The notes: a model not told the origin generated them from the letters alone. Positions 4,593 to 22,954 are shown, numbered from the stretch's first letter. The stretch is DNA of 43,060 bases from Candidatus Latescibacterota bacterium (GCA_965205655.1 CBDBIJ010000045.1:1-43060), one strand, 5' to 3'. A program made the numbers and translations.

Positions 4593-4598
4593 CGAATC

Positions 4599-5742: not shown

Positions 5743-5743
5743 G

Positions 5744-7582: not shown

Positions 7583-7931
7583 TGCCGTCGCCTGCCTCCG
7601 AACCGATGGAATCTCTCTCGGCGATCAAGTCGATGATGAGATCCACGCCGGCGCGCTTCTCCAGAAATCTCACAAAGCGGTCGTACTCGTCGGGTGAAAA
7701 AAGCATCGTTGCGAAAGGAGCCATGAACGCGAGGAGCTGACTACCGAGAAAATTGAGTGGCCTGCCCGTCTCCAAGAGCATGATAGCGGGCGCGGTCATG
7801 CGGCGACGCACGATAAAGCTCGCCACCCGGCTCGCGAGTTCGCGCTCGACCTCATCGAATTCGGCGCTCTCGGGTGTCTCGACGGCAAAGGCGTGCCGGA
7901 GTCGTGACCGCAGCGAGCTATGAGCGGACAT
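7575..7931 (-). CDS. Small conserved hypothetical protein
   Basis: MSAHSSLRSRLRHAFAV...IVRRRMTAPAIMLLETGRPLNFLGSQLLAFMAPF. Overlaps both neighbours; start could alternatively be 7961. Confidence 0.65.
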   Translation of the reverse strand: MSAHSSLRSRLRHAFAVETPESAEFDEVERELASRVASFIVRRRMTAPAIMLLETGRPLNFLGSQLLAFMAPFATMLFSPDEYDRFVRFLEKRAGVDLIIDLIAERDSIGSEAGDGIE

Positions 7932-8325
7932 GCGATCGAACGTAGGCGGCCACGTCGCCACCGTTCTCGAAGCAGCGAATGAACAACCCTCTGAACGGGT
8001 CGAGACGCGTCGGCTTGGGAAACGGGCTGAGAAAGACTCCGTCCCGATGGATGTCAGCTCGGCGGAAATCAGCCCATCCGCAGCGACGGGTCCAGATCAG
8101 ATGAGAGGTCGTCAGACCTTCATCATCGAGGCAATAACGGGTCGGGAGGAGGTAGCGAGACATGGACGCCACGAGAATGCCAGTCGCGATAGCACCGTAG
8201 ATGATCCCCCCGAAGCTGGCCGTGACCGTCGCGGCCACGACGAGGATGACAGTGACCAGAGACGCCGACTTCATCCACGATTCGTCGGTCAGCGGGTGGG
8301 CGGTCCAATTCATTGCTGGTGGCAT
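7918..8325 (-). CDS. Small two-TM membrane protein with a C-terminal PH-like beta domain
   Basis: Two hydrophobic helices, then YLLPTRYCLDDEGL...GVFLSPFPKPTRLDPFRGLF. 1-nt gap to crp. Confidence 0.65.
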   Translation of the reverse strand: MPPAMNWTAHPLTDESWMKSASLVTVILVVAATVTASFGGIIYGAIATGILVASMSRYLLPTRYCLDDEGLTTSHLIWTRRCGWADFRRADIHRDGVFLSPFPKPTRLDPFRGLFIRCFENGGDVAAYVRSHVRS

Positions 8326-8326
8326 C

Positions 8327-9040
8327 CTATTCCCCCGACTCTTCGTCCCCCGAGCCGTCTTCTTGAGATTCAGTTTCGTCGGGCAGAATCAGTATCTCCC
8401 GTCCCCGGCACACGATATACCCATCCCGTTCCAGTTGCCGCAAAGCGCGGGTGACGGTTTCGCGCGTCGTGCCCGCCATGTTGGCCAGCTGCTGATGAGT
8501 TGGTCGCTGCTCGATCAACACACCATCATTCGTCTCTTTGCCGCGATCCGCCGCAAGCCGCAGGATCGTCTTGGCGACCCGGGTGTGGACGTCGAGCAAG
8601 GCGAGACCGCCCACCTGTTCGTCGGTCCGTCGCAGGCGAGAGGCGAGCTCCTCGAGCAAAGCGACGGCGATCGCCGGGATACCCTGCACGAGCTGGAGGA
8701 AGTCCACCCGTTTGAGCATGAGCAACTCGGTCTTTTCGAAGGCGACAACATTGGCCGAGCGCGGCTCGTCGTCGAGCAGGGCGAGCTCGCCAAAGAATTC
8801 GCCCTCGGTGAGAAGCGACAGGATGAACTCCCGGCCATCTTCGTGAATGAGGCTCACCTTGACCTGCCCCCTGCGTATGATGAACAGGGTGTCCCCCGGC
8901 TCGTCGACGAGGATGATGAGCTGGCCTTTCTCGAAGGTCCTGGCGAAGGTCAGGTCGGCCAGGGCTGCGAGCTCACGGTCACCGAGGCAATCGAACAGGG
9001 GAACGCGGCGCAGGAAAGAGGCGATGTCCATATCAGGCAT
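8327..9040 (-). CDS. Crp/Fnr family transcriptional regulator (cNMP-binding type)
   Basis: FLRRVPLF; cNMP pocket FFGELALLDDEPRSANV; HTH THQQLANMAGTTRETVTRAL. No Fnr Cys cluster. Confidence 0.95.
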   Translation of the reverse strand: MPDMDIASFLRRVPLFDCLGDRELAALADLTFARTFEKGQLIILVDEPGDTLFIIRRGQVKVSLIHEDGREFILSLLTEGEFFGELALLDDEPRSANVVAFEKTELLMLKRVDFLQLVQGIPAIAVALLEELASRLRRTDEQVGGLALLDVHTRVAKTILRLAADRGKETNDGVLIEQRPTHQQLANMAGTTRETVTRALRQLERDGYIVCRGREILILPDETESQEDGSGDEESGE

Positions 9041-9070
9041 CCAGCATCGAGATGTACGGGCATCCGCGGG

Positions 9071-10020
9071 TCACGAGAGCTCCTTCAAAAGTGCCTTCCA
9101 GCTCTGTCGCTCGACCTCTGGATCGACGAGCGACTCCCGTTGGCGGCAGTGCCGTCTGAGCTCTTCGCAGAAATCTTCATCTCTCTCCGTTCGCTCCATC
9201 AGCTCAGCCAGTTTTGCCGTCTCCCCGAAAGGAAAGTAACCAGGATAGCTCTCGCCGAGAAGGCCGACGGACCCGCCGATTCGGGTGGACAAGACGGGTG
9301 TTCGGCAGGCGAGAGCCTCACACACCACGTGCGCCCCCCTTCCATTTCGGAGGTGAGCACGAGCAGCCGGCTGCGGGCGATCAGGCGGATCGTTCGCCAT
9401 CGGGGCAGTTCACCCAGCCAGCGATACCTGGGGTTTTCGCGCTCCTCCGATTGAGCACGTCGAGCCATGTCGTCGCTGAGGGCCGACCCCACGTGGGTGA
9501 CGGTGACGCCGGATGATGCGGGAAGCAGACGGGATGCCGCAGCGGCCCTGAAGGGATCTTTCACCGGCCGCAGGTGGCCGACGACGCTGACCTCGAACAT
9601 GTCCTTTCGCGGTGGGTGCTTCCCGGGTGGCCGACGAATCGACTGGTAGATTGTTCGGGCTCTGTCGCGCAACGCTGCGGGCAGTTCATTGACGCCGAGA
9701 GTTTGCAGTACCACGAAACGGTCGGCCAGCTGCAGCGAGCGTTGAGCTTCTGGATCAGTGCGGATGTCACCGTATAGGTCCGTACCGGTAAGAGCGAGAA
9801 CGAGTGGACGCTCGGGGTGACGCTCTCGGAAACGCCGAACGGAGGTAGCGCTACGGCGGGCGTGAAGCGCGATCATGAGATCGCACCGCTGCCGCTCGTA
9901 TTCCACGGCGATCGAAACGCGATGACCGAGACCGCGCAACAGGCGGGACCAGCGCAGAGCCGTAACTCTGTTACCTGCTCTGGATCCGGCCGGGGCGGGT
10001 GTGACAATGAGGATCCTCAT
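9071..10020 (-). CDS. senB: Selenosugar synthase SenB (GT-B glycosyltransferase); one G missing in the G-run at ~9334-9339
   Basis: MRILIVTPAPAGSRAGNRVTALRW, MIALHARRS, LALTGTDLYGDI, VVGHLRPVKDP, SEMEGG/AHVVCEA, GLLGESYPGYFPFG. Directly downstream of senA. Confidence 0.88.
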
Positions 10021-10068
10021 GGGATCCACCCTATACTGCTGATGCGTTGGTCCCGGCGTTCTCCGGCT

Positions 10069-11381
10069 CTACAGCGCACAGGTGCGAAAACCGGTGAGAA
10101 CGTCGCGGCGGTCGGGAGTCTGGAAGTTGCGGTAGTTGGCCCGAATGAGCCGGGAACGGGTGACCCAGCATCCCCCGAGCATCACCTTGCGAGTGCCGAA
10201 CCAGGGCTCGGAATAATCTTTGTACGGATCGGCGACGAATCCCGGAAAGGGAAGAAAGTCCGAGCTCGTCCACTCCCAGACGTTGCCGATCATCTGGCGG
10301 CAGCCCCAGGGGCTGTCCCCAGCCGGCAGGTCCCCGACATCCGTTGTGCCCATTTCGCGCCAATCCAAATTTGCCAGCTCGGGTGTGGGCGGGGCATCTC
10401 CCCAGGGGAATCGCCGCCTCTCTTTCGACAGTCCGCCGTTGGGCGCCGGCTCCGCCGTCGCCGCAGCCACCCATTCGGCCTCGGTGGGCAACCGACGTCC
10501 CGCCCAACGGCAGTAGGCGTCAGCCTCGTACCAGTTTACGTGGATGACGGCCTTGTGCGGTTCGAGATCGACCCACTCATCAAAGTGGCGCCGCTGCCAG
10601 GTGCCGCCTACGCGGCGCCAGTGGACATGGTGCTCGGCTTTCTGCTCCTGCCGCCACTGCCAACCCTCGTCGACCCAATATTTCTTTTCGGTGTAGCCGC
10701 CGGCATCGGTAAAGTCGGCATATTCGGATTGGGTGAGGGCGGCGCGGGAAATTCTGAAGAGCTCTAGCTCGACGGGATGGACCCATTTCTCGTTGTCGAA
10801 GACGAAGGCCTCGTCCCGGCCCGAGCCCAGCATGAAGCTGCCTCCGGAATCTCGATGTCTCCCGGCAGTGGACCGCCTCCCGACGTATGCCACGGCGGCG
10901 CCATCTCGGAAAACCGCGGCGGCGGAAAGCCGTGGGTCTGGCGGGTGTAGGTAAAGGCTTCTGTATGCATGTCCTCGTGGAGGGTGCTGTAGAGGGCGTG
11001 ATAGCGCAGCTCGTCGCTGGGATCCTCTTCCAGAAGGGCGAGAACCCGGTCGCGGACCTCCCGCATGTAGTCGAGGGTCGCCTCCCGCGTGGGAAGCGGC
11101 AGATCCCAGCGCCTGTCATGAGCGATTTCCATGGAGTCGTAGAGCTCATCCTCGCGGTCGACGACGGGCGCCTGACGGCCGGCGTGGCGCAGGGCCCACC
11201 TCGACTGGAACCAGGCGTGGTGGCCCATCTCCCAGAGTCCCGGATTCACCACGGAAAGCTGAGGCCCCATCAACTGTTCATCGGACAGGTCACCGACGAG
11301 GTCGAAGGTGCGCTGGCGCGCGTCCTTCACCCACTCGATGAGCTGGGAATCTGAAGCGACACGACCGATGTCGCCGTCCAT
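10069..11381 (-). CDS. senA: Selenoneine synthase SenA (EgtB homolog; DinB + FGE-sulfatase domains); indel at ~10845
   Basis: Iron triad in [10 protein letters not shown] and [51 protein letters not shown]...GFRTC. Flanked by senB and selD. Confidence 0.85.
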
Positions 11382-11472
11382 GAAATTACTCCGGAGCTGG
11401 CGTACGCAAAGATGGGGGTTCCATTTAAACGCATATTATCATAGGTTTGCGCGCTCAAATCCAGAGGGTGAT
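11382..11472. promoter_or_regulatory. Divergent promoter region between senA and selD
   Basis: 91-bp AT-richer spacer (TTTAAACGCATATTATCATAG) between oppositely oriented starts; each start has a plausible RBS. Confidence 0.45.
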
Positions 11473-12530
11473 ATGGCGATCTTCTCAAAAGAAAAAACGC
11501 TGACGAATCTGGCCAAGACCTGCGGCTGAGCGGCGAAGGTGAGTCCGGTCGGACTCGGCAGACTGCTGGCGGGGTTGCCCAAGAACGTCGACCCGAATCT
11601 CCTCGTCGGATACGAGACGAGCGACGACGCCGGAGTGTATCGTCTCGACGGTGAGACCGCCCTCATCACGACGGCCGATATCATAACGCCACCGGTCGAC
11701 GATCCGTTCGTGTTCGGGCAGATCGGGGCGGCGAACTCCCTGAGTGACATTTTCGCCATGGGCGGCAGACCGCTCACGTGTCTGAATCTGATCGGGTTTC
11801 CGACGAAAGCGCTGGGACAGGAGGTGCTCGAGGGGATCGTCGAGGGGGCGCTGAGCAAGATAACGGAGGCGGGCGCCGTGCTCGCGGGGGGACACACGAC
11901 CGATGACGAAGAGCCCAAAATTTGGCCTCGCGGTCACCGGCATCGTTCATCCGGAGAAGCTGTGGCGCAATACTGGCGCGAAACCCGGAGATGTCATCAT
12001 CCTGACGAAGCCGATCGGCAGCGGCGTACTGTTCAACGCCAACTTGAAGAATCTGGTTTCCGAGGCCGCCATGGACGCCTGCATCGCGACCATCTCGACT
12101 TTGAACAAAGCAGCTTCCGAAGTGCTACAGCGCTACACCGTGCACGCGGGCGACGGACGTGACGGGTTTTGGCCTCGCCGGGCATGCGCTGGAAATGGCG
12201 CAGGGTTCGGCGGTGACGATCGAGTTTGACGTCGACGAAATTCTCGTTCTCGACGAGGCTCTGCAGCACTACGACAACGGTGTCACCACCGGGTCAAACC
12301 AGAACAACCGCGCCCTCATCGAGAATTCAGCCCGCTTCGACAGGTCGCTGCCCAGTAAGCAGAGTGAAATCTTCGTCGATCCTCAGACCAGTGGCGGTTT
12401 GCTTGTAGCCATGCCGGAGGATGAGGGTCGGCAGGCCCTGCCGGCCCTGCACAATGCGGGCATCGATACGGCTCGCATCATCGGCAATGTGATTTCTATC
12501 CAGCGATCAGACCATCTCGTTTTCAAGTGA
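11473..12530 (+). CDS. selD: Selenide, water dikinase SelD/SenC, selenocysteine-containing; two indels (~11920, ~12149)
   Basis: MAIFSKEKTLTNLAKTCG-UGA-AAKVSP..., LVGYETSDDAGVY, TADIITPPVDDPFVFGQIGAANSLSDIFAMGG, GGHT, EPK/FGLAVTG, LTKPIGSG, TDVTGFGLAGH, DPQTSGGLL. Confidence 0.95.
11527..11557 (+). promoter_or_regulatory. Sec codon (TGA 11527-11529) and bacterial SECIS-like hairpin
   Basis: Stem GAGTCC (11541-11546) / GGACTC (11551-11556) with loop GGTC; 17 nt lie between the UGA and the G-starting apical loop. Confidence 0.75.
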
Positions 12531-12537
12531 GGACCTC

Positions 12538-13398
12538 CTGAAAATTTTCATCGCCACTGCCCTTGTGTTGAACTATTCAATCTCAATCGGCTTCGCCGTT
12601 GAGACGTTTCGGTTCACGGCCATACCAGATCAGAACACGGCCCGCCTGACGGAGCGGTTCGACAAGATCGCCGAATACCTTTCGGGTGAACTCGGAGTGT
12701 CTGTCGAGTACATCCCGGTGAAGTCATACGCCGCATCTGTTGCCGCCTTCAAGAACAACGAAGTGCAGCTGGCGTGGTTCGGAGGGCTCTCGGGGGTTAA
12801 GGCGCGACGCGCAGTGCCGGGTTCGCAGGCGCTAGCGCAGGGGGAAGAAGACCTTCAGTTCGTCACCTACTTCATCGCCAACACGAGTACGGGCCTCAAG
12901 GCGTCGGAAGAATTCCCTGACGGTATTGCCGGCCGCACGTTCATCTTCGGATCCAAAGGCTCGACCTCGGGCCGACTCATGCCGGAGTACTTCATCCGTC
13001 AGCACTACAAAAAATCACCGGATGATGTGTTCAACCGTGTCGGCTTCAGCGGCGACCATTCCAAGACCCTGGCGCTGGTGCAGTCGGGCGCCTACGAAGT
13101 GGGCGCTTTGAATTTCAAGGTCTGGGACAACGAATTGAAAGAGGGTAAGGTAGATAGCGCGAAGGTGCGGGTTATATGGAAGACGCCACCATACCCGGAC
13201 TACAACTGGTCGATTCGCGGTGACGCGGAGACACGCTACGGCAAGGGATTCGTGAAAAAGGTCCAGGACGCCTTGTTGTCTCTGGATGACCCAGACCTAC
13301 TGAGCCGGTTTCCACGCTCAAACTTCATCGCCGCCGACAACTCCATCTACGGTCCGATCCTCGAAACCGGGACCGCGATCGGCATTTTCGAGCAGTAG
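12538..13398 (+). CDS. Putative selenium-associated (selenate-type) ABC transporter substrate-binding protein, PhnD-like
   Basis: FRFTAIPDQN, YAASVAAFKNNEVQLAWFGGLSGVKAR, FGSKGSTSGRLMP, FSGDHSKT, IWKTPPYPDYNW. The signal peptide extends upstream to CTG 12538. Confidence 0.85.
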   Translation: MKIFIATALVLNYSISIGFAVETFRFTAIPDQNTARLTERFDKIAEYLSGELGVSVEYIPVKSYAASVAAFKNNEVQLAWFGGLSGVKARRAVPGSQALAQGEEDLQFVTYFIANTSTGLKASEEFPDGIAGRTFIFGSKGSTSGRLMPEYFIRQHYKKSPDDVFNRVGFSGDHSKTLALVQSGAYEVGALNFKVWDNELKEGKVDSAKVRVIWKTPPYPDYNWSIRGDAETRYGKGFVKKVQDALLSLDDPDLLSRFPRSNFIAADNSIYGPILETGTAIGIFEQ

Positions 13399-13437
13399 GA
13401 CGAAAGTTGCGGCTAACCAGCTGAGATCCCGAGACCA

Positions 13438-14100
13438 ATGTACGACCTCGATAACCTGAGCGTCGCCTACGAAGACGCGCCCGTCCTCAGGGACATCTGT
13501 CTCCAGATCAAACCTGGTGAGAAGGTCGTCATCATTGGACGCAGCGGTGTCGGAAAATCGACTCTGCTGAAAAAGCTGTATGAGCTGCGACAGCAGGAGT
13601 CAGCCCTCATACACCAGGATTACGCCCTGGTGCCCCAGCTTTCGGCTTTCCACAATGTCTTCACGGGACGCCTCGACGAGCATCCGACGACTCACAACTT
13701 GCTCAATCTGCTCAGACCGCAGAAAGGGGAGATCGATCGAATCAGGCCGATCTTTCAGGCTCTGGGTATGGAGGAAAAGATGTTCGAGCGGGTGAGCAAC
13801 CTCTCGGGCGGCCAGCAGCAACGGGTTGCCGTGGGCAGAGCGGTCTATCGAGGCTGTCCCATCATTCTCGGCGACGAGCCCGTATCCTCCATCGATCCGC
13901 ACCAGGCCGGGACAGTGCTGCAGCTCATCCTACAGAGCGCCCCGACAGTGGTTCTGGCGATGCACGACGTGCAGCTCGCACTCGAGCATTTTCCCCGCAT
14001 CGTCGGTCTGAAGGATACGAAGGTCTGCTTCGATCTGCCGGCATCGGAGGTGGACGAGGGCACGCTGGCCGACCTCTATCGAGGAGAGACTCCGCGCTAA
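13438..14100 (+). CDS. ABC transporter ATP-binding protein (PhnC-like)
   Basis: Walker A GRSGVGKS, signature LSGGQQQRVA, Walker B ILGDEP, H-loop MHD. Confidence 0.92.
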   Translation: MYDLDNLSVAYEDAPVLRDICLQIKPGEKVVIIGRSGVGKSTLLKKLYELRQQESALIHQDYALVPQLSAFHNVFTGRLDEHPTTHNLLNLLRPQKGEIDRIRPIFQALGMEEKMFERVSNLSGGQQQRVAVGRAVYRGCPIILGDEPVSSIDPHQAGTVLQLILQSAPTVVLAMHDVQLALEHFPRIVGLKDTKVCFDLPASEVDEGTLADLYRGETPR

Positions 14101-14126
14101 TCGCATCAGTCCGGATTCACTGAGAG

Positions 14127-15626
14127 ATGTTCCGCACCAGTTTGTATTTCCTGTTGGTGGCGCTTGTCTGTCTCGGACTCGCAGACATTGAAGTCACGAC
14201 TCTCGATCCGTGGCAGGAGATGCGCAGGATCGCCATCGGTTTTCTGACGCCGGATCTGCCGGTCCTCTACACGTTCAGAGATGCGCTGCTCAACACGGTC
14301 ACATTCGCATTCTGCGGTCTCAGTCTCGGGGTGCTATTCGGCTCTGCGCTCGCATTCTTCCTTCACCTGGCTCCAGTGCGCCTGTTCTGCGCCTTCATCC
14401 GGGCTATTCACGAGATCTTTTGGGCATTTCTTTTCTTGCCCATCGTCGGCCTCAATCCAATGTGCGGCGTCCTCGCTATCGCCATTCCGTATGCCGGTGT
14501 CTTCGGCAAGGTATATGCCGAAATCATGCAGGAGGCAGACCAGACACCGCTGAGGGGCATACCAACCGGCGCAGGCAGCATCAGCAAGTTCTGTTTCGGC
14601 GTTCTCCCGGTCATCTACAGCGATCTCAAGAACTACACGTCCTACCGTTTCGAATGCGCCCTGCGCTCCAGCGCTATCCTTGGGTTTATCGGTCTGCCGA
14701 CGCTGGGGTTTCATCTCGAGACGGCGTTCAGGGAGGGGCTCTATTCGGAAGCGCCAGCATTGCTATACGCCTTCTACCTCCTCATCGCCTCATTGCGCCT
14801 GTGGTTGAAGCCCAAGCTGGTCATCGCGTACGTAGTGGCTTCCTTCGCACTCATTTCGACGGAAATCACCGTGCAATGGACGAACATCACGCGATTCCTG
14901 ACGTACGAGATTATGCCGTGGCCGATGCGGCGCGAAGGATTTCTCGATGGCACTGGCGAGATTTCTTTCCCCGTCTCCGCGGTGTGGCGTTGGGCGGTGA
15001 GTATCGTCGAGTCGGAGGCGCTGCTGGGGGTGTGGAATACGGTCGTGCTGACCCAGGTCGTCCTCGTGGGAACTGGCGTGTTCACACTTGTCTTCTTCGG
15101 CACGATCTCCCATCACTTCGTAAAGGCGCGGGGATCGCGAGCGCTGTCGCACTACCTCCTCATCGTCATGCGGACGACGCCGGAGTACATCATGGCCTAC
15201 GCCATGCTGCAGCTGTGGGGACCATCGATGTTGCCGGCCGTCGTTGCGATCATCCTCCACAACGGCGCCATCCTCTCCTATCTCACGGGCCAGAACGCCA
15301 ACCTCGTGGAACTGCGGATTGACTCGGCGCGCAGGAAGGCGAATCGATATTTCTTCGAGGTCCTGCCGAGGGTGTACGGGCAGTTTCTGGCGTTCCTGTT
15401 CTATCGCTGGGAAGTGATGATGCGAGAGTCGGCAATCCTCGGTATCTTGGGCATCTACACGATCGGGTTCTTCATCGACAGCGCGATTTCGGATGACAAA
15501 CTCGACAAGGCGGTTTTTCTGATCCTGATCACGGCTGTGCTCAACATGGGAATCGACTCGATTTCCCAGATCATTCGCAGGCGTCTGCGGATTACCACAG
15601 GCGCCGTCTTTACATACCAACAGTGA
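14127..15626 (+). CDS. ABC transporter permease with duplicated PhnE-like domains
   Basis: Two repeats: RAIHEIFW...YRFECALRSSAILGFIG and RTTPEYI...YRWEVMMRESAILGILG. Confidence 0.9.
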   Translation: MFRTSLYFLLVALVCLGLADIEVTTLDPWQEMRRIAIGFLTPDLPVLYTFRDALLNTVTFAFCGLSLGVLFGSALAFFLHLAPVRLFCAFIRAIHEIFWAFLFLPIVGLNPMCGVLAIAIPYAGVFGKVYAEIMQEADQTPLRGIPTGAGSISKFCFGVLPVIYSDLKNYTSYRFECALRSSAILGFIGLPTLGFHLETAFREGLYSEAPALLYAFYLLIASLRLWLKPKLVIAYVVASFALISTEITVQWTNITRFLTYEIMPWPMRREGFLDGTGEISFPVSAVWRWAVSIVESEALLGVWNTVVLTQVVLVGTGVFTLVFFGTISHHFVKARGSRALSHYLLIVMRTTPEYIMAYAMLQLWGPSMLPAVVAIILHNGAILSYLTGQNANLVELRIDSARRKANRYFFEVLPRVYGQFLAFLFYRWEVMMRESAILGILGIYTIGFFIDSAISDDKLDKAVFLILITAVLNMGIDSISQIIRRRLRITTGAVFTYQQ

Positions 15627-15692
15627 CGCTTGGCCGCACGCTGGATCTTGAGGCGTACAAATCACGGAGGACGTATGAACAAGCTTCCAGAT

Positions 15693-16809
15693 TCACCCAC
15701 CCCACACCATCTCAGCCACCTCCACGACGAGCTGCAGGTTTTGCTTTCTGGTCGGCGAGAGTCAGTCTATTTCCAGCGATGGAACTGGCGAAGCCGCATT
15801 GAGGGCTGATGGCGAGCTGCTCTTGCGGAAAATAGCGTCCAGCTTCCCCGATACGGTCGACGAGGTCTGTCGCGGATTCGAGTCTGCCGGTCTTCGTCGT
15901 AATCAGTCCCAACACAACGATCCTGTCATCGGGCACGTGGGCGAGCGGCGCGAAGGTTCCCGAGCGGGCATCGTCGTATTCCAGGAGAAGCCGGTGCACC
16001 CGCACGCGCTGGAAGATCTGGCGGGCGATGTTGTCGTAGCCACCCTCCACGAGCCATCGGCTCTCCTGATTGCCGCGACACAAATGCATAGCGAAGGTGA
16101 TTTCCGAGGTGAAGTCGCCGATGACGGCGTTGTCGAGCTCGATGCCGGACGAGAGCCAGCGATCGATGCTCCAGCCGCGGGATTCGTAGAACGACCGGGC
16201 GGCGGGATCGAGGAGGAGAGGGTAGTGCGGGGCATCGAGCTGGATGTAGGTGGCGCCGAGGCGCACGAGCTCGGCCACTTCTTCCTTGAGGATCTGCGCG
16301 ACGTCGGCGAGGAATGAATCGAGAGTGGGGTAGACGTGTGACGAACGTTCGGCGGACCAGAAGTTGGCGAACAGACTCGGGCTGGGCAGGCTGACTTTTG
16401 GGACGCGGCTCGTCCTGCGGGCAAGGTAGCTGAACTCATCGGCGCAGAGATAGCGGCGACGGGTGAGCTTGTCGATTGCGCCAAGTGTGACAGGGCGGTC
16501 GAGGCTCTTGCTGCCTACGTCTTCGTCGCCGTGCCAGTGGCCCCACAGAAAGGCGTCGATACCGAAGTCGCCGAAACCATCGACAGCTTCGGGCAGCTGG
16601 CTCTGAAACGAGAGGCGGCGCATCTCACCGTCGGTAACGACTTCGAGGCCCGCTTCTTCCTGCAGAGACACCGCTTCGTCGACGGCGCGATTCTCGATCT
16701 GCTTAAAACCCGCTTCAGAAAGGTCACCCGAGTCATGCTGCTGACGCGCGGTGCGCAGCCAATCCGGCCGCAGCAGACTGCCGACGACATCGGTGTGCGA
16801 GGTGATCAC
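15693..16809 (-). CDS. Cobalamin-independent methionine synthase II family (core MetE-like, single Zn barrel); one extra base near 15738
   Basis: VVGSLLRP, VVTDGEMRR, YIQLDAP; Zn ligands in HLCRGN, LEYD and SPQCGFAS. GTG 16809 overlaps the egtD stop. Removing one base restores the ending KLQLVVEVAEMVWGG*. Confidence 0.88.
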
Positions 16810-17819
16810 GGCGGTGCGAATACATTGACACTGAACAGCCGATCGGCGTCGAACCATTGGTGCTCGAGGACAAACTCCGACTGCACCGCCAGCTGCTCGA
16901 TTTCCTGCTGCGAGTACTTGTAGCAGTTCTCGGTGTGGATGGTTTCGCCGGCGGCGAAACCGACGATCAGATCCAACTCATCGATCGCGACCTCCTGTGA
17001 CCCCTCACTGACCAGGTGCATCTCGACTCGGCCGAGCTCGTCGTCGTAGCGCGCGAGATGGCGAAAGGCGACGAGGTCGAAATGGCCGCCAAGGTCGCGG
17101 TTGATGCGCTCGAGGATGTTCTTGTTGAACTGCGCCGTGACGCCCTGGCTGTCGTCGTAGGCCGCTTCGAGGGTGAGGCCATCCTTCCGCATGTCGATGC
17201 CGGCGAGGAAGCGATCACCCTGCGTCATCGCCTGGCGAACTTCGGCGAAAAATTCGACTGCCCGGGAGCGATCGAAGTTGCCGACATTGGAACCTAGCCA
17301 CAGGATGAGCCGCTGTCCGTCTTCGTGCTGCCGAAGATAGGCCAATCCGTCGTCGTACTCGCCGGCCACCGCCAGGATCTCGAGATCTTCGAAGTCCTCG
17401 ACGAGGGCAACCGCGCTTTGCTCCAGGGTGGTAAGAGAGATATCCACGGGAATGAAGCGGAGGCCGCCGTGATGCTCGATGAGGGCATCCATGATGAGTC
17501 GCGTCTTCACTGCGCTGCCGCTGCCGAGCTCGACGAGGGTGACCTCCTCGGGAAAGAGGGCGGCGATTTCGGTGGCCCTCTCGGCGAGGATGGCGCGCTC
17601 GGTCCGAGTGAGGTAGTACTCAGGCAGCGAGCAGATTTTCTCGAACAGCTCAGAGCCCTCGGCGTCGTAGAAGTAGCGGCAGGATAGATGCTTGGGATTC
17701 GAGGTGAGGCCGGAGCGGACGTCTGCGGCGAAATCGTCGGAATGCTGGCGATCGATGGCGGCGACCATCGTGAGTGCGTCGGACTCGACTCGAGTCGGCT
17801 GCCGTGAGAACTGAGTCAT
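16806..17819 (-). CDS. egtD: L-histidine N-alpha-trimethyltransferase (hercynine synthase)
   Basis: YFYDAEGSELFEKICSLPEYYLTRTE, VELGSGSAVKT, WLGSNVGNF, AYDDSQGVTAQFNKNIL, ETIHTENCYKY. Confidence 0.93.
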   Translation of the reverse strand: MTQFSRQPTRVESDALTMVAAIDRQHSDDFAADVRSGLTSNPKHLSCRYFYDAEGSELFEKICSLPEYYLTRTERAILAERATEIAALFPEEVTLVELGSGSAVKTRLIMDALIEHHGGLRFIPVDISLTTLEQSAVALVEDFEDLEILAVAGEYDDGLAYLRQHEDGQRLILWLGSNVGNFDRSRAVEFFAEVRQAMTQGDRFLAGIDMRKDGLTLEAAYDDSQGVTAQFNKNILERINRDLGGHFDLVAFRHLARYDDELGRVEMHLVSEGSQEVAIDELDLIVGFAAGETIHTENCYKYSQQEIEQLAVQSEFVLEHQWFDADRLFSVNVFAPP

Positions 17820-19400
17820 CAGTCGACGGGCTTCAGACGAAGCCCCTTCGGTACGAACACGCGCTCCGACAGTTCGAACAGGCCCTGGACGAGGAGTGCG
17901 AGGACAGCGGCAGGCACGGCCCCTTCAAGAATGAGACTCATATCATCCAGTCGCAGGCCGGTCATGATCGGCTGGCCATAGCCGCCGGCGCCGATGAGGC
18001 CGCCCAGCGCTGCGAAGCCGACGTTGATGACGGCGGCCGTTTTGATCCCGGCAAGTACCGAGCGCGACGCCATTGGCAGTTCCACGAGGCGCAGGCGCAC
18101 GCTCGACTTCAAGCCAAGGGCCTCGGCCGATTCGCGGATGTTGAGGGGAATATCGCACAAGCCAGTGTAGGTATTGCGCACGATCGGGAGCAGGCTGTAG
18201 AGAAAGAGGGCAGCGATGGCGGGTAGCGTGCCGATGGAGGCGAGGCCGACAAGACTGAAGAGAGCCATCATGAACGCGAGCAGGGCAAGAGCTGGAACGG
18301 TCTGGATAACTCCCGTTACACCGAGAATGGCCTGTCCCAGGCGCGGCAACTGGGGCGCCGAGGACGCCCAGGGGGACGGCGACGAGGACGGCGGCGCTCA
18401 GTGAGATGACCACAAGAACGAGGTGCTCAGCCGTGTACCGTAGCAGTCGATCGAAGATGGTTTCCTCTTCGACAATCGTCTCGAGCTCGAGGGCGGTTTC
18501 GAGAAAGTCAGCGGCGATTCTGGTTTCCGGCGCCTTTTCGATGAGCGCGCGCGCGTTCATGCGGATCATGGTGCCGTCGTCGATGAGGTCCTCGAGCTGC
18601 AGTATGGCGGAGACAACGCGGGGTGCGCGCTCTGCAAGGTCGGCGCGATACAGCAGGACCGCGTTGTAGACCGGAAAGTGTGACAGGTCGTCCTCCAGGA
18701 CACTGAGCGCGTACCGCTGGATTTCCGCGTCTGTGGAGTACAGATCCATGGCGTCGATGGCTCCCGACTGGAGACCCTTATAGGCCAGGACATGCTCAAT
18801 GCCGCGGACATCGTGATGGGGCAGACGATACGTGTCGCGGAGACTGGGCCAGCCGTCGCCGCGGTCCATGAACTCGTTGCTGAAGCCGAGGCTGAGCTCG
18901 GGATGTCGGCGCAGGTCGGAGATGGTACGAACGCCGAGCTGGACGGCCCTGCTTTCCAGCATACCGATCGCATAGGTGTTGTTGAAGCCGATGGACCGGC
19001 TCATGTGTAGTCCGTGCTCGGCAACAGCCTTGCGAATAGCCTTCTCACCCTGCACTCCCAGGCCTGCGAGAATCTCCTGGCTGATGGTGCCGGTGTACTC
19101 GGGATAGACGTCGAGCTCGCCGCTCAGGAGACCATTCCACAGAATACGCGTGCCGCCCAGCTGGCGTTGATGGACTGCCGTAGCGTCAGCGCTCCGCGCG
19201 AGATGAGAGATGAGCTCTCCGAGGATGACGGATTCAGTGAAGGTCTTGGAGCCGATTTTCACTTCGATCGCTTCGGGTGTAGGTGTAGCAGCTGACGGTG
19301 GGGCGCTGGCGGCGAGCACGCAAAGGCAGACAGTTACGAGGCCAGGGGATCGGCCTGGTGCCCTCAGTTCGGAGGCCGAAGAACGGACTGGCGGATTCAC
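17819..19400 (-). CDS. Glycine betaine/QAC-type ABC transporter, fused substrate-binding protein + permease (indel at ~18350)
   Basis: [53 protein letters not shown], then permease [34 protein letters not shown]. Overlaps both neighbours. Confidence 0.88.
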
Positions 19401-20149
19401 CGTGCGTCGCCCCCCAGTACCTCGACGGCCGTGCGCTGCGCGTTGATGAACCGCGTTACGAAGGGGTCGGCCGGCTCGCTCACGAGCTGGTGAAGGTTAC
19501 CCTCCTGCAGGATCTCACCCTCGCGCATGAGGATGATGGCATCGCCGAAGTAGCCGGCTTCGGCGATGTCGTGAGTGACCATGACCACCGTCTTCTGGAG
19601 GGTGCGGAAAATCTCACGAAGGTCTGCCTGCAGTTCCGAGCGGACGATCGGGTCGAGGGCGCCGAGGGGTTCGTCGAGGAGCAGTACGTCGGGATCCAGC
19701 ATGAGACCGCGCATGAGGCTGACGCGCTGCCGCTGTCCACCGGAGAGTTGGGCAGGATAGCGGCCCAGGCCGTCCAGGGGAAAATGGGTGAGCGCGCACA
19801 GCTCGCCCAGACGGGTATTGATGCGGGCCTCGTCCCAACCGAGGTGACGGGCGAGCAGGGAAACGTTGCCGGCGGCCGTGAGATGGGGGAAGAGGCCGCC
19901 GTCCTGGATGACGTATCCCATGCGGTGGCGCAACTCGACAGCATCTTCAGGGGTGAACTCCGTTCCTTCGAAGCGGACGGCGCCAGTGTCGGGGCGGATG
20001 AGGTAGAGCATGAGCCGCAGCAAGGTGGACTTGCCGCAGCCGCTTGGTCCGATGAGCGCTGTTGTGAGCCCGGCCCGAATGGTCAGGTCGGTTGGACGGA
20101 TGGCAGGGGTGCCATCGAAGGTCTTGGAGACGTTCGTCAGTTCGAGCAC
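19397..20149 (-). CDS. OpuA/OsmV-like ABC ATP-binding protein
   Basis: GPSGCGKS, GYVIQDGGLFPH, YPAQLSGGQRQR, LLLDEPLGALDP, VTHD. Confidence 0.92.
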   Translation of the reverse strand: MLELTNVSKTFDGTPAIRPTDLTIRAGLTTALIGPSGCGKSTLLRLMLYLIRPDTGAVRFEGTEFTPEDAVELRHRMGYVIQDGGLFPHLTAAGNVSLLARHLGWDEARINTRLGELCALTHFPLDGLGRYPAQLSGGQRQRVSLMRGLMLDPDVLLLDEPLGALDPIVRSELQADLREIFRTLQKTVVMVTHDIAEAGYFGDAIILMREGEILQEGNLHQLVSEPADPFVTRFINAQRTAVEVLGGDAR

Positions 20150-20173
20150 GGAGATAGGGCGTGCAGCCGGCTC

Positions 20174-21553
20174 TCAGTCGAGAGGCTCCAAGCTGCCGAG
20201 CACGGTCGGGATGAGCTCCGAGACGGTGGGGTGAATGTGCACGGCCCGCTGGATGACGGTGTAGGGCGCCTTCGCGTACATGATGTCGAGCAGAGAGTGG
20301 ACGACCTCGTCGCCATTCACGCCGAGGATGGCAGCACCGAGAATCTCCTTCGTATCGGCATCGACGTGAATCTTGATGAAACCGTCGGTTTCGCTGCGCT
20401 CGCGGGCGCGCCCCACATCTGCCATCGCCCGCGTGCCGACGAGGGCGTTGCGGCCCGAGGCGCGCACCTGCTGCTGCGTCATTCCCACGCGGCCGAGCGG
20501 TGGATCGATGAACAGCCCGTAGCAAGAAATGCGATCGGAGACCCGTCGCGGATCGCTATCGAAGAGGTTGGCGGCGACGATCTCGAAGTCGTTGTAAGAG
20601 GTGTGAGTGAAAGCCGCCAGTCCGTTGCAATCGCCGATAGCCCAGATGCCTGGCACGGTCGTGCGCAGCTGGTCGTCGACCTTGATGAATCCCCGATCGT
20701 CGGTTTCCACGCCGGCGGCGTCCAGTCCCAGGTCGTCCGTGTTCGGGCGGCGACCAACGGCGACGAGCAGATGAGAGCCGCTCACCTGCTCTGCCCCATC
20801 CGGTGCAGTGAGGTAAGCGATAACGTCGTCACCATTTTTTTCGACGCGGTCGACGCCGGTCTCACAGCGAACGCTGACCCCATCCTTTTCGAGAATGTCG
20901 CGGATGGCAATGGAGATATCCTCATCTTCCCGGGAAATCACGCGCGGCCCACGCTCGATCACGGTCACGTCGCTGCCGAAACGGCGGTACATCTGGGCGA
21001 ATTCGAGCGCGATATAACTGCCCCCGATGATGACGAGGTGCTCGGGCAGGAAATCGACATCCATTATTGACGAATTGGTCAGATAATCGACCTCATCGAG
21101 ACCTGGAATGGGTGGGGCGACAGCGCGGGCGCCGACGTTGATGAAGATTTTCTCCGCCTCGAGGGTGTCGCCATTGACGGAGACTCGATTCGGTCCTTCG
21201 AAGCGGCCGTGTCCCACGAAGACGCTGCCGTTGTCCAGGCCCTTCATCCAACCGGCGACCCCGGAGTTGGACTGCGCCACGATGGCGTCTTTTCTAGCCT
21301 TGACCTGCTTCATGTCGACGCGGATCGGCTGATTGATCACGACTCCAAAATCGGTGCCGCGTCGGGCCATGTGCGCGGCCCGCGCACTGGCGACGAGGGT
21401 TTTGGTGGGGATGCAGCCGACGTTCACGCAGGTGCCCCCGAAGAGGTTGCGCTCGAGCACGGCGACCTTCATACCCTCGTCACTCAGGCGGTCGGCGAGG
21501 GAGGGGCCGGACTGGCCGGTTCCTATCACGATTGCGTCGAATTTCTGGGCCAT
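20174..21553 (-). CDS. Class I pyridine nucleotide-disulfide oxidoreductase (mercuric reductase/RclA-like family)
   Basis: IVIGTGQSG, redox disulfide GGTCVNVGCIPTK, IIGGSYIALEFA, WAIGDC, C-terminal HIHPTVSE. Confidence 0.9.
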   Translation of the reverse strand: MAQKFDAIVIGTGQSGPSLADRLSDEGMKVAVLERNLFGGTCVNVGCIPTKTLVASARAAHMARRGTDFGVVINQPIRVDMKQVKARKDAIVAQSNSGVAGWMKGLDNGSVFVGHGRFEGPNRVSVNGDTLEAEKIFINVGARAVAPPIPGLDEVDYLTNSSIMDVDFLPEHLVIIGGSYIALEFAQMYRRFGSDVTVIERGPRVISREDEDISIAIRDILEKDGVSVRCETGVDRVEKNGDDVIAYLTAPDGAEQVSGSHLLVAVGRRPNTDDLGLDAAGVETDDRGFIKVDDQLRTTVPGIWAIGDCNGLAAFTHTSYNDFEIVAANLFDSDPRRVSDRISCYGLFIDPPLGRVGMTQQQVRASGRNALVGTRAMADVGRARERSETDGFIKIHVDADTKEILGAAILGVNGDEVVHSLLDIMYAKAPYTVIQRAVHIHPTVSELIPTVLGSLEPLD

Positions 21554-21650
21554 GTTGGACGCAAGTATATCACAGGCCGGAGGCAGTGGCAAGACTCGGC
21601 AGTTCGACAAAGCACAGTAAAATAGTGACTTAGACGCGGAACAGCAGTCG

Positions 21651-22424
21651 TCAGAGTGGCTCGCGGCGACGAAGCATGCGCAAGATCCACCAGGCGGCGG
21701 CGGCGGCGATCAGGTGTTTGAGAGAGTGGCCGCTGATGATGTAGCCGACACCATACATGAGCACGTCGCCGACTTCTGCCAGCTTGGCAGCGATGTAGAG
21801 GGCGGCCACGACGTAGAGATCCCGGCTCCGGGAGTATGGTGAGGGTAGCAGCCCTGCCATGAGCGGTACGAGCAGGACGGGCAAGAGCTGGGCGAGGACA
21901 TAGTAGCGCAGGTCACCGGCGCCAACCTGCTCGGTGAGGCGCCAGTAACAGACACTGAAGATCCCGTAGCCGATCAGGGGGATCAATAGGATGAGGCCAC
22001 CACGCCGGTCGATCCGTTCGGTGATTGCCGTGGCGAGAAGAGACATGAAAGCGATGCTCATGGGTAGACGGTCCCAGAACAGTCGCTCGGTGTCCGGCTT
22101 GAGATGGTAGTATGAGGAGCCGAATCCAGTGAGGAAAACAGCGGCGAAAAGCGCGGCGTACGGAACAACTTCCAAAGCCGAGAGGAAGAAGCCCTCCTCA
22201 GGGATACGGCCGCGGATCAGAAGCCACCACAAGCCGAAGGCTCCGACCACAATGAAGGGCAGATTCGAAACGACGTTCAGACAATGAGGGATACCGAGCG
22301 TTGTGCGCTGATCGGCGAGGTCGTGGTAGGCGGAGTCCTGGGGAATGGGGGGTTGCAGGAAAATGGCCGCGCAGGCGACGACTGTCACAGAGGCGAGGAG
22401 CTTGAGACGATGGTCGCGGGACAT
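21651..22424 (-). CDS. Ceramidase-like (CREST superfamily) 7-TM protein
   Basis: YHDLADQR, NVVSNLPF, GSSYYH, WDRLPM, GDLRYY, SGHSLKH. Confidence 0.8.
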   Translation of the reverse strand: MSRDHRLKLLASVTVVACAAIFLQPPIPQDSAYHDLADQRTTLGIPHCLNVVSNLPFIVVGAFGLWWLLIRGRIPEEGFFLSALEVVPYAALFAAVFLTGFGSSYYHLKPDTERLFWDRLPMSIAFMSLLATAITERIDRRGGLILLIPLIGYGIFSVCYWRLTEQVGAGDLRYYVLAQLLPVLLVPLMAGLLPSPYSRSRDLYVVAALYIAAKLAEVGDVLMYGVGYIISGHSLKHLIAAAAAWWILRMLRRREPL

Positions 22425-22472
22425 CGGCTCTTCTCTATATGGGCTGGCTGGCCGGGGCGGCGGAGCCCAGGA

Positions 22473-22922
22473 TCAGGAGGAGCTTGTCGGGGCGGCGGGG
22501 GCTGAAGGCTGTGAGGTTGAAGGGGCCTGGTCAGCGTTCACGGCGGGAACATCGCAAGAGCCGGTATCGCACTCGACGCGGCCAAAGCGGTGTCGATTCC
22601 GCGCGATGAGGTCGTAGCCAATTTTGAAGAGCTGACGTAGAATCGGGATGCGGTAAGTCCATGTGACCAGGTGGTAGGGCGGCAGCGACCCGTATATCTC
22701 GAACACGGCATCAGCGCCGACACAGACTCTCCCGTCGTCCTTGATCAGCCTCAGACCGGTATTGAAATCGGACTGTGACAGGATGGGAAAGCGCTCGTCC
22801 ACGCCATCCGCCTGACGCGGCAGGTACTCGAACTGATCCTCGCGGTCCAGCGATCGAATGCGCCGCACGCTCCACTGACAGAAGCGGCATTCGCCGTCGT
22901 ATATGATGGTGGATTGGGGCAT
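22473..22922 (-). CDS. DCC1-like / DUF393 thiol-disulfide oxidoreductase
   Basis: MPQSTIIYDGECRFC (DxxCxxC)...GADA...YDLIARNRHRF. Confidence 0.85.
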   Translation of the reverse strand: MPQSTIIYDGECRFCQWSVRRIRSLDREDQFEYLPRQADGVDERFPILSQSDFNTGLRLIKDDGRVCVGADAVFEIYGSLPPYHLVTWTYRIPILRQLFKIGYDLIARNRHRFGRVECDTGSCDVPAVNADQAPSTSQPSAPAAPTSSS

Positions 22923-22954
22923 CGACAGTGAAGATAACCATGATGAGCCAAATG

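What the first reader, a model, noticed from the sequence alone, without database searches (positions are those of the whole stretch)
9071..21553. Expanded, apparently self-contained selenoneine locus: uptake, activation, synthesis, methyl supply, transport and redox recycling
Known: SenC makes selenophosphate, SenB makes a 1-seleno-sugar, and SenA couples it to hercynine (from EgtD) to give selenoneine without a lyase. Seen: all four genes lie within 9 kb, with no egtC/egtE and no second egtB in the window. Seven accessory genes accompany them: a three-gene selenium-associated ABC importer, a core-MetE enzyme, a two-gene betaine-type ABC transporter and a flavin disulfide reductase. Several are joined by start/stop overlaps. 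Inference: a fuller selenometabolite system than the canonical senABC triad, possibly making a modified product.
Basis: partly seen in the sequence, partly recalled or inferred. Interest (0 to 1): 0.85.

Follow-up and report, generated by a model that had tools for sequence, protein, structure and literature searches.

The report
Complete selenoneine supercluster with MetE-like helper
This bacterium keeps all the genes predicted to make the known selenium antioxidant selenoneine in one block, with mostly already-catalogued transport and redox genes plus an optional methionine-synthase-like enzyme that likely recycles methyl groups rather than making a new product.

Summary
Real and intact. All 11 genes are present. 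The six frameshifts are assembly errors, corrected in short-read contigs. SenA, SenB, SelD and EgtD keep their catalytic residues, so the likely product is ordinary selenoneine.

The locus is not self-contained. The only SelD found in the genome is itself UGA/selenocysteine-coded and needs SelA, SelB and tRNA-Sec from other contigs.

Six of the seven accessory genes belong to families already tabulated as neighbours of this enzyme class (PMC13674229). Among 34 related sen stretches, linkage falls from selD (23) and the Se importer (21) to egtD (13), MetE-like (5), betaine ABC (4) and reductase (2).

Less known: (i) the YxjH-like MetE core enzyme overlapping egtD. It occurs only in sen-positive genomes of this phylum (12 of 12), and its zinc Cys is TGA in 18 of 80 homologues, but Cys here. 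(ii) SenA has Gln where the published motif has Phe/Tyr.

Relatives, not this window, carry in-frame UGA in senB at two sites. The scan noted the Sec-MetE-like enzyme and Sec-SenB before on other DNA. Verdict: new variant of a known kind.

The parts
9071..10029 (-). senB, selenosugar synthase (GT-B). One assembly indel at ~9333 in a G run. No UGA: Arg and Ser at the two sites where relatives have TGA.
   Evidence: TIGR04348 291 + 102 bits on the two pieces; N20/T23/H58/T83/R155/K158 and EGG-AHV motifs present; indel corrected in X1, X3, X4
10069..11381 (-). senA, selenoneine synthase. Composite motif VNEH--HRHMHYYNFQR, with Gln at the V. paradoxus Phe397 position. One assembly indel at ~10845.
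   Evidence: NF041186 165 + 307.5 bits against EgtB 61.5 + 232.4; intact relative 488.9 > cut-off 420; motif; indel corrected
11382..11472 (.). 91-bp AT-rich gap between divergent senA and selD; likely bidirectional promoter (inferred; no sigma-70 consensus hit)
   Evidence: sequence; promoter scan found nothing here
11473..12530 (+). selD/senC, selenophosphate synthetase; predicted selenoprotein (TGA at 11527-11529, U19, CGU-AAK); only selD found in the genome. Two assembly indels (~11917, ~12148).
   Evidence: TIGR00476 pieces; TGA=U reading; TGA kept in all 24 listed selD N-terminal hits, some duplicate; single copy
11540..11557 (+). SECIS-like hairpin behind the selD UGA (7-bp stem, GGUC loop)
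   Evidence: fold (z -0.79, not unusual against shuffles); stem kept in relatives, with a both-sides change in some (read)
12541..13398 (+). Putative selenate ABC transporter binding protein; start codon uncertain (ORF finder starts at 12565)
   Evidence: TIGR04553 373.3 bits > cut-off 250
13438..14100 (+). PhnC-like ABC ATPase of the Se importer
   Evidence: TIGR02315 170 bits, below cut-off; PF00005
14127..15626 (+). PhnE-like double permease of the Se importer
   Evidence: TIGR01097 201 bits, two stretches
15693..16809 (-). Core MetE-like (YxjH/PRK06520-like) zinc enzyme, Cys form (HLC, codon TGT); start overlaps the egtD stop. One assembly indel at ~15737.
   Evidence: PF01717; PRK06520 233.7 bits (cut-off 313); nearest structure 1YPX, E 3e-50; S/E/D and H/C/E/C residues kept
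16806..17819 (-). egtD, histidine N-alpha-trimethylase (hercynine synthase)
   Evidence: TIGR03438 358.3 > 290.9; nearest structures are EgtD; only copy found
17819..19400 (-). Betaine-type (OpuAC/ProX/EgtU-like) binding domain fused N-terminally to one permease domain. One assembly indel at ~18352.
   Evidence: PF04069 + PF00528; best PDB hit EgtUC, E 9e-35; single ORF in 14 locus hits of relatives
19397..20149 (-). OpuBA/ProV-like ABC ATPase
   Evidence: TIGR01186 207 bits, below cut-off
20174..21553 (-). PRK06370-family flavin disulfide reductase (CVNVGC redox pair, C-terminal HIHPTVSE)
   Evidence: NF004992 772.8 > 629; nearest structure 6KGY, E 7e-78
21564..21592 (-). Sigma-70-like site (TTGCCA-17-TATACT, 10 of 12, extended TG) just upstream of the reductase; may start the reductase-to-MetE-like operon
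   Evidence: 3 sites found against 3.7 expected by chance, so only its position is suggestive

Best explanation
The block is an intact, unusually complete selenoneine gene cluster whose likely product is ordinary selenoneine, with optional helper genes predicted to supply selenium, methyl groups, betaine uptake and reduction. Steps shown in the literature for homologues and inferred here: SelD makes selenophosphate from selenide; SenB makes a 1-seleno-sugar from a UDP-sugar; EgtD trimethylates histidine with 3 SAM; SenA couples the two, and the selenoxide eliminates without a lyase. Steps inferred only: the TIGR04553 ABC imports a Se oxyanion, and with SelD it also serves the cell's selenoproteins. 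The MetE-like zinc enzyme, coupled to egtD, re-methylates the homocysteine left by EgtD turnover (methyl donor unknown, most likely a methyl-corrinoid protein or an imported betaine). The Opu-type ABC takes up a quaternary amine, probably a histidine betaine such as hercynine. The reductase reduces oxidised selenoneine or another small disulfide/diselenide. Because SelD carries a UGA codon, the whole route depends on the SelA/SelB/tRNA-Sec machinery encoded elsewhere.
For: Family hits and intact catalytic residues for SenA, SenB, SelD and EgtD. The SenA motif matches the published one at all positions but one, including the hercynine-specifying Y/N/F that separates it from OvsA. Indels are corrected in X1 and X3 (6 of 6) and X4 (3). 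No EgtC, second NHISS or SelU found in the genome. The MetE-like protein keeps the equivalents of E. coli MetE S433/E484/D599 and H641/C643/E665/C726; its start overlaps the egtD stop. It was found in 12 of 168 genomes of the phylum, all 12 with senA and/or senB, against SenB in 31 of 168 (G001 by a contig-end senA). It is adjacent to sen genes or egtD in different orders in three phyla. A gene named yxjH in Lactobacillus paracasei is methionine-T-box regulated and co-transcribed with luxS (PMC6004538 passages). The reductase was found in 11 of 168 genomes, all SenB-positive.
Against: No activity, product or expression data. The genome has other candidate routes to methionine: a split MetH-like module on C29 and a second MetE-like paralogue on C54. 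66 of the 80 nearest MetE-like homologues have no sen gene or egtD in the fetched flanks (29 of the 80 loci are under 15 kb). The MetE-like gene is on only 5 of 34 related sen stretches and the reductase on 2. Every sen-linked MetE-like copy seen outside the window's family has TGA at the zinc ligand, which a plain methyl-recycling role does not explain. SenA has Gln at a position described as Phe or Tyr in all SenA proteins, so its selenol substrate could differ. The Opu binding protein fails three EgtU pocket features. My placing of the protein with YxjH rests on the PRK06520 and 1YPX hits and on recall; I did not compare it with a YxjH sequence. Kin are not independent, and Poribacteria SenB nests among the Latescibacterota rows of an unfinished quick tree.
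Confidence: 0.72

Rival explanations
1. The cluster makes or handles a modified selenium metabolite. The MetE-like zinc enzyme transfers a methyl group to or from a selenol (Se-methylselenoneine, methylselenol or selenohomocysteine), and the Gln-variant SenA may take a different selenol donor.
For: The zinc-ligand Cys is TGA in 18 of 80 homologues and in 3 of 12 Latescibacterota copies. All 13 sen-linked loci of other phyla are TGA forms. SelA is over the cut-off in all 8 TGA-form genomes tested (5; G088, G112, G117). A metE(U)-(one gene)-senA-senB(U) run occurs in G088 and a metE(U)-senA pair in G112 without egtD beside them. SenA has Gln at 397 in 20 of 46 rows.
Against: Homocysteine-binding residues are kept. 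The enzyme is optional: about two thirds of sen-positive genomes of the phylum lack it. Five TGA forms have no sen gene nearby. The Gln SenAs nest among Phe/Tyr SenAs, with Phe again in three. The window's copy is the Cys form.
Confidence: 0.15
2. The accessory genes are not one system. Two or three independent modules (a general selenium uptake/activation unit, a histidine-betaine synthesis/uptake unit, and generic methionine and redox genes) happen to lie together in this lineage.
For: None of 34 related stretches has all genes; in G013 the two halves are intact on different contigs. The Opu transporter is in 43 of 168 genomes, 13 of them in a genus with no senA/senB hit. The reductase is away from sen genes in 7 of 11 genomes. 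SelD is the only copy found and serves selenocysteine too.
Against: The MetE-like gene (12 of 12) and the reductase (11 of 11) are confined to sen-positive genomes even when unlinked, and co-occur in 8 (hypergeometric p about 0.004 among ~33 sen genomes, overstated by kinship). PRK06370 and Opu genes are recurrent NHISS neighbours NCBI-wide (4.0% and 5.4%). Start/stop overlaps tie ATPase, opu, egtD and the MetE-like gene.
Confidence: 0.25
3. The NHISS is a sulfur enzyme (EgtB-like) or an ovoselenol synthase (OvsA), or the frameshifted genes are pseudogenes.
For: By phmmer both halves score slightly higher against OvsA chains than against SenA chains. Five genes are frameshifted in the assembly.
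Against: It has His at the EgtB Arg87 position and no Asp416; it has Y/N/F, not the OvsA M/Q/A; egtD is present. SenA HMM beats EgtB HMM. Indels are corrected in short-read contigs, and relatives have single ORFs.
Confidence: 0.04

Closest known systems
senABC selenoneine cluster of Variovorax paradoxus / Amycolatopsis palatopharyngis (bioRxiv 10.1101/2022.04.13.486033; structures 8K5I, 8RYZ, 8JJN, 8FBX)
   Same: SenA, SenB and SelD with catalytic residues; no lyase; the preprint already notes a putative selenate transporter near many clusters and egtD in a small subset.
   Different: senA-senB and selD are divergent; SelD is UGA-coded and the only copy found; no separate egt pathway found; SenA has Gln at 397; MetE-like, Opu ABC and reductase genes are attached.
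NHISS gene neighbourhoods tabulated in PMC13674229 (JACS 2026, Table 1)
   Same: EgtD 69.9%, OpuBA/LolD/PhnC 13.6%, SenB 8.1%, SenC 6.3%, OpuBB/PBP2_AfProX_like 5.4%, Lpd/PRK06370 4.0%, PhnE 3.1%, ABC_peri_selen 3.1%.
   Different: No MetE-like family in the table, and no hit for MetE, methionine synthase or PRK06520 in the text of its supplement (figures not readable).
EgtU ergothioneine ABC importer (S. pneumoniae EgtUC, 7TXK; bioRxiv 10.1101/2022.05.02.490363) and AfProX
   Same: Best structural-sequence match; keeps K242, T275, T296, N339, Y341, E375, R379, D381, Y419 and Y443 equivalents.
   Different: Phe at G244, Tyr at F293 and Phe at Y337 (the AfProX-like state); His at P401; binding domain precedes the permease, the reverse of EgtU.
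Core methionine synthases MesA-MesD (PMC7857596) and the YxjH/1YPX group
   Same: Single catalytic barrel with no folate domain; zinc and homocysteine residues conserved.
   Different: Nearest structure is the uncharacterised 1YPX (E 3e-50); MesD structure 3RPD only E 1e-6. A Cys/TGA pair at the zinc ligand is not in the 119-family table of PMC13188914.
ovs (ovoselenol) cluster, OvsA/OvsM (PMC11030361)
   Same: Uses senBC and a close NHISS relative.
   Different: OvsA has M/Q/A for free histidine and most producers lack egtD; this protein has Y/N/F and egtD is in the block.

Membership tests
sen cluster (SenA) | Scores as SenA above EgtB/OvoA and above the curated cut-off | tested here: met
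   Pieces 165 + 307.5 bits on NF041186 (cut-off 420 for a whole protein; neither piece passes alone) against 61.5 + 232.4 on EgtB; intact Gln-type relative 488.9
sen cluster (SenA) | Three-His iron site, catalytic Tyr, N63/E68/H/R120 selenosugar residues, Y/N/F hercynine residues, R401 | tested here: met
   [31 protein letters not shown]...R
sen cluster (SenA) | Phe or Tyr at the EgtB Asp416 / SenA Phe397 position (published composite motif) | tested here: not met
   Gln in the window and in 20 of 46 rows, Met in 2; NFQR and NFMR not found in the held supplement of PMC11030361. Nested among Phe/Tyr SenAs, so filed as a SenA variant.
sen cluster (SenB) | TIGR04348 with N20/T23/E231, K158 and EGGAHV | tested here: met
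   291 + 102 bits; motifs; residues from PMC10891094 and PMC11237966
sen cluster (SenC/SelD) | SelD with catalytic Cys/Sec-x-x-Lys beside senAB | tested here: met
   CGU-AAK; TIGR00476; SelA, SelB and tRNA-Sec in the genome
sen cluster | Production of selenoneine | not testable with these tools
   needs LC-MS or reconstitution
EgtB (ergothioneine) | Arg87/Asp416 thiol-binding pair; egtC downstream step | tested here: not met
   His and Gln at those positions; no EgtC found
OvsA (ovoselenol) | M401/Q430/A431 histidine-binding motif | tested here: not met
   Y/N/F present
EgtD | TIGR03438 above cut-off | tested here: met
   358.3 > 290.9; nearest structures EgtD
Putative selenate ABC importer (TIGR04553) | HMM above cut-off and next to selD | tested here: met
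   373.3 > 250; follows selD directly
Putative selenate ABC importer (TIGR04553) | Binds a selenium oxyanion | not testable with these tools
   annotation is 'putative' in the library and the preprint
EgtU | Aromatic cage and carboxylate clamp (K242, T296, N339, Y341, R379, Y419, Y443) | tested here: met
EgtU | G244 and the F293/Y337 switch that favour ergothioneine over glycine betaine | tested here: not met
   F, Y, F in the window and in all 20 listed rows; G244F and F293Y lower affinity in S. pneumoniae EgtU
EgtU | N-terminal permease fused to C-terminal binding domain | tested here: not met
   order is reversed here
Core methionine synthase | Zn ligands H/C/E/C and homocysteine residues S/E/D, no folate domain | tested here: met
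MesA/MesB/MesC/MesD | Close similarity to a characterised member | tested here: inconclusive
   MesD structure 3RPD only E 1e-6; NCBIfam methionine synthase models far below cut-off; MesA-C sequences were not compared directly
Core methionine synthase | Methylates homocysteine; known methyl donor | not testable with these tools
   no assay
PRK06370 FAD-containing oxidoreductase | HMM above cut-off; redox CxxxxC and C-terminal His-Glu pair | tested here: met
   772.8 > 629; sequence. Substrate unknown.

The most novel reading that the evidence does not exclude
The MetE-like protein is a fourth, uncharacterised enzyme of selenoneine metabolism: a zinc enzyme, often with selenocysteine as a zinc ligand, that moves a methyl group onto or off a selenol (for example making or salvaging Se-methylselenoneine). 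In this clade the pathway is also rationed by UGA codons in up to three of its own genes (selD, senB, the MetE-like gene), so the antioxidant is made only when selenocysteine supply is sufficient.
Probability: 0.17. Interest if true: 0.8.

Novelty: new variant of a known kind. Interest (0 to 1): 0.42.

Why it matters
The pathway is known. The value of this block is that one intact 12.5-kb stretch holds every recurrent but untested neighbour of sen clusters, so four open questions can be tested with natural genes: what the TIGR04553 importer binds, what the Opu-type protein carries, what PRK06370 reduces, and what the YxjH-like enzyme does. The Cys-form MetE-like enzyme here is an easily expressed stand-in for a candidate selenoprotein family missing from the 2026 inventory. 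The Gln-type SenA tests whether the published Phe/Tyr rule fixes the selenosugar. If the MetE-like enzyme acts on selenols, it would be new selenium chemistry.

Tried and rejected
Pseudogene reading of the five frameshifted genes: rejected. EgtB or OvsA identity: rejected by motif. 'Betaine ABC is EgtU': not filed as a member, three pocket residues and domain order differ. 'Betaine ABC is selenium-specific': rejected. A split two-protein SenB in relatives with the linker TGA: not favoured, no conserved restart codon and a conserved coding frame behind the TGA. The G002 senB TGA (~aa 168) is at a third, unshared site and was left out of the counts as a probable nonsense change or error. The metagenome scan with the frameshifted SenB piece gave only 3 loci. 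The promoter/terminator scan was at chance level. Single-strand folding z-scores of the SECIS-like hairpins were mostly not significant. No RNA holder listed, so nothing on expression. The AlphaFold model of the Cys-form SenB (pLDDT 93.9) placed the linker site in a loop and the second site in strand 144-149; no fold search followed. The careful SenB tree did not finish; the quick tree was used. Atlas search of the upstream ceramidase-like gene gave only ceramidase-like clusters. Literature searches with no result: new selenoprotein families + methionine synthase, Latescibacterota + selenoneine. PMC12013261 (Haft and Tolstoy 2025) was not held; its families are known to me only through the table of PMC13188914. 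No complex prediction was run.

Full report
Setting. The window is a whole contig (C45) of a 4.0-Mb, 150-contig assembly, 84% complete. The closest named homologue locus of the MetE-like gene (L053, 70% identity, same reductase-ATPase-opu-egtD-MetE-like order) is from a Candidatus Latescibacterota genome, so the host is taken to be of that phylum.

Observation. The layout is senA-senB leftward; selD plus a three-gene TIGR04553 ABC importer rightward from a 91-bp AT-rich gap; and a converging leftward run of PRK06370 reductase, ABC ATPase, OpuAC-permease fusion, egtD and a MetE-like gene. The last four are joined by start/stop overlaps. Six single-base indels, mostly at short base runs, break senB, senA, selD (twice), the MetE-like gene and the Opu fusion. 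Relatives carry each split pair in one ORF. Contigs of runs X1 and X3 correct all six and X4 three; X2 shows none, its contigs ending at or missing these places. X1 may be the source sample. The genes are therefore intact in the organism.

Core enzymes. The NHISS scores as SenA (165 + 307.5 bits on NF041186 against 61.5 + 232.4 on EgtB); an intact relative passes the cut-off (488.9). Its composite motif reads VNEH--HRHMHYYNFQR. The published SenA pattern is xNEH--HRHxHYYN(F/Y)(F/Y)R and OvsA is xNEH--HRHxHYMQAYR (PMC11030361, passages and supplement part 2). So it has the hercynine residues and lacks the EgtB Arg/Asp thiol pair, but has Gln where the 2022 preprint says all SenA proteins have Phe or Tyr. 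Phe397 lines the donor pocket (PMC11237966, parts 2-3). Gln occurs in 20 of 46 SenA rows, all from this phylum, nested among Phe/Tyr forms (FastTree; four partial or duplicate loci left out). SenB keeps N20, T23, H58, T83, R155, K158 and EGG-AHV (residues). EgtD passes its cut-off. No EgtC, SelU or second DinB-bearing NHISS was found in the genome; EgtE was not searched for.

Not self-contained. selD begins at 11473 and has an in-frame TGA at codon 19 in a CGU-AAK motif. The TGA is kept in all 24 listed N-terminal hits, some duplicate, with a small hairpin behind it. It is the only selD found. SelA (C68), SelB (C110) and tRNA-Sec (C15) are on other contigs. SelD and probably the importer thus serve selenocysteine synthesis too, and the pathway depends on that machinery. 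Sec-containing SelD is a known family.

How conserved the extras are. In 168 genomes of the phylum, SenB was found in 31 and SenA above cut-off in 30. On 34 fetched sen-bearing stretches other than the window (mostly up to 20 kb, many cut by contig ends), selD was present in 23, the Se binding protein in 21, egtD in 13, the MetE-like gene in 5, the Opu ABC in 4 and the reductase in 2; none had all. Two more Opu loci lie just outside the fetched stretch (G128, G129). G013 has both halves intact on different contigs. The Opu protein was found in 43 of 168 genomes, 13 in a genus with no senA/senB hit. The reductase was found in 11, all SenB-positive. The MetE-like gene was found in 12, all with senA and/or senB. 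Kin are not independent, so these overlaps overstate.

What is already in print. The 2022 preprint (10.1101/2022.04.13.486033, parts 1-2 read) notes a putative selenate transporter near many clusters and egtD in a small subset. Table 1 of PMC13674229 (part 1 read, supplement text searched) lists EgtD, OpuBA/PhnC ATPases, OpuBB/AfProX-like, Lpd/PRK06370, PhnE and ABC_peri_selen among NHISS neighbours. That covers the families of six of the seven accessory genes. A MetE-like family is not in that table or in its supplement text. Supplementary figures of these papers were not visible and may show such clusters.

The betaine-type ABC. Its best solved match is S. pneumoniae EgtUC. It keeps the cage and carboxylate residues but has Phe at G244, Tyr at F293 and Phe at Y337 (all 20 rows). 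G244F lowers ergothioneine affinity about 100-fold in EgtU and the F/Y switch is the AfProX state (10.1101/2022.05.02.490363 passages). The domain order is reversed (10.1101/2025.07.28.667264 part 1). It works like a quaternary-amine importer and is not filed as EgtU. Hercynine is my best guess from the egtD coupling; glycine betaine and selenoneine remain open.

The MetE-like gene. It is a single catalytic barrel closest to the uncharacterised 1YPX. It keeps the zinc (H, C, E, C) and homocysteine (S, E, D) residues defined in PMC7857596 (passages). A gene named yxjH is methionine-regulated and co-transcribed with luxS in L. paracasei (PMC6004538 passages); that this protein belongs with YxjH is partly recalled. 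Of its 80 nearest homologues in other genomes, 12 Poribacteria loci read MetE-like, selD, senB; one Tectomicrobia locus reads egtD, MetE-like, senA, Opu ABC; one is the Latescibacterota locus L053; 66 show no sen gene or egtD. In 5 of 5 Poribacteria tested, senA lies elsewhere beside egtD. In Actinomycetota the commonest real neighbour is a homocysteine S-methyltransferase family gene (16 loci). In 18 of the 80 the zinc-ligand Cys codon is TGA, including all 13 sen-linked loci of other phyla. SelA is present in all 8 TGA-form genomes tested, and a short hairpin follows the TGA. No such family is in the 119-entry table of PMC13188914 (table read) or mentioned in the main texts of PMC13326102 and PMC12013277 (term searches). 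The window has the Cys form. The genome also has a split MetH-like module on C29 and a second MetE-like paralogue on C54, so this copy is not needed for methionine as such.

Mechanism. I commit to selenoneine as the product, by the known route (shown for homologues, inferred here; about 0.85). I read the MetE-like enzyme as a homocysteine methyltransferase that restocks SAM for EgtD's three methylations (inferred; about 0.5), against a selenol-methyl role (about 0.2) or an unrelated passenger. The reductase is a plausible recycler of the diselenide; the only support is co-occurrence and a mammalian precedent seen as an abstract listing (PMC8868364).

Seen in relatives, not in the window. senB has an in-frame TGA at one linker site (about V. 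paradoxus Ala135) in 8 of 31 Latescibacterota SenB genomes, from three families. All 8 have SelA. One genome has Cys there. A 7-bp hairpin about 21 bases downstream is 91% paired, with both-side changes in 4 of 7 pairs, above shuffled and slid controls (related sequences can beat such shuffles). Seven of 40 Poribacteria SenBs have TGA at a second site, three residues before GHLR, which is Cys in 100 of 120 homologues; 5 of 5 tested have SelA. Neither site is among the catalytic residues in the passages read. I found no paper on this. I reached both the Sec-MetE-like and Sec-SenB observations from my own calls (45, 73) before reading the scan's notes, which report them on other DNA; those notes are unchecked and are not independent support.

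Verdict. A real, intact and unusually complete selenoneine cluster; a new variant of a known kind. Most of the set is already tabulated, its linkage is loose, and nothing points to a new product. What remains open is the MetE-like enzyme and the Gln-type SenA. Interest 0.42.

Noticed in passing
L030:10387(+), L144:13075(+), L147:9034(+), L148:9398(-), L149:9602(+), L150:9522(-), L151:9054(-), L152:7516(-): senB with an in-frame TGA at the same interdomain-linker site in 8 Latescibacterota genomes, with a covarying SECIS-like hairpin and SelA in all 8; Cys at this site in L154. The window has Arg (codon at 9631-9633).
   Followed up: yes
L166-L172 (e.g. L167:8968+, L169:9244+): Seven Poribacteria senB genes with TGA at a second site (FEV-U-VIGHLR) that is Cys in most homologues; a 4-bp hairpin is perfect in 7 of 7 TGA forms and 9 of 38 Cys forms. 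The window has Ser.
   Followed up: yes
L057, L059, L061, L064-66, L069, L073, L080, L085-88, L091-93, L096, L127, L142-144, L169: MetE-like homologues with TGA at the zinc-ligand Cys (H-L-U-R-G-N); candidate selenoprotein family absent from the 2026 table.
   Followed up: yes
L144:9220-13638: G088 has a MetE-like(TGA), one unrelated ORF, senA and senB(TGA) on one strand: two predicted selenoproteins in one run.
   Followed up: partly
window 21651-23048 (-): Ceramidase-like membrane protein and DCC1-like thiol-disulfide oxidoreductase directly upstream of the reductase; the pair precedes the Opu/egtD module in G013 and G015, and the ceramidase-like gene follows senB in G010 and G016. Role unknown.
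   Followed up: partly
window 3372-9040 (-): senB runs into a CRP-family gene, two hypothetical genes, a GlmL-family gene and DUF6754. In 11 of 12 Poribacteria loci senB is likewise followed by gpsA, what looks like the same small hypothetical gene (judged by eye) and a GlmL-family gene, which suggests shared origin of the neighbourhood.
   Followed up: partly
L059 etc., ~6700-9930 upstream of the MetE-like gene: In Poribacteria the MetE-like gene is preceded on the same strand by a zinc alcohol dehydrogenase, an FeS_assembly_P protein and an amidohydrolase (9, 11 and 12 of 12 loci).
   Followed up: partly
G000:C29:61791-69469: Split MetH-like genes (homocysteine-binding, pterin-binding, B12-binding) with further ORFs that look by eye like a corrinoid activator and a methyltransferase: a possible methyl-corrinoid donor for the core MetE-like enzyme.
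   Followed up: partly
window 23380-24651 (-): Intact IS256-family transposase just beyond the cluster's right end, where GC drops from about 62% to 54-57%.
   Followed up: no
window 12577: An in-frame 6-base deletion in the signal region of the Se binding protein in runs X1 and X3 relative to the assembly.
   Followed up: no
L028:10298: G002 senB has a lone TGA at about aa 168, not shared by others; nonsense change, error or a third Sec site.
   Followed up: no
L044, L153, L160: SenA copies over the HMM cut-off that lie apart from senB (G019 has two), forming a divergent branch with L133.
   Followed up: no
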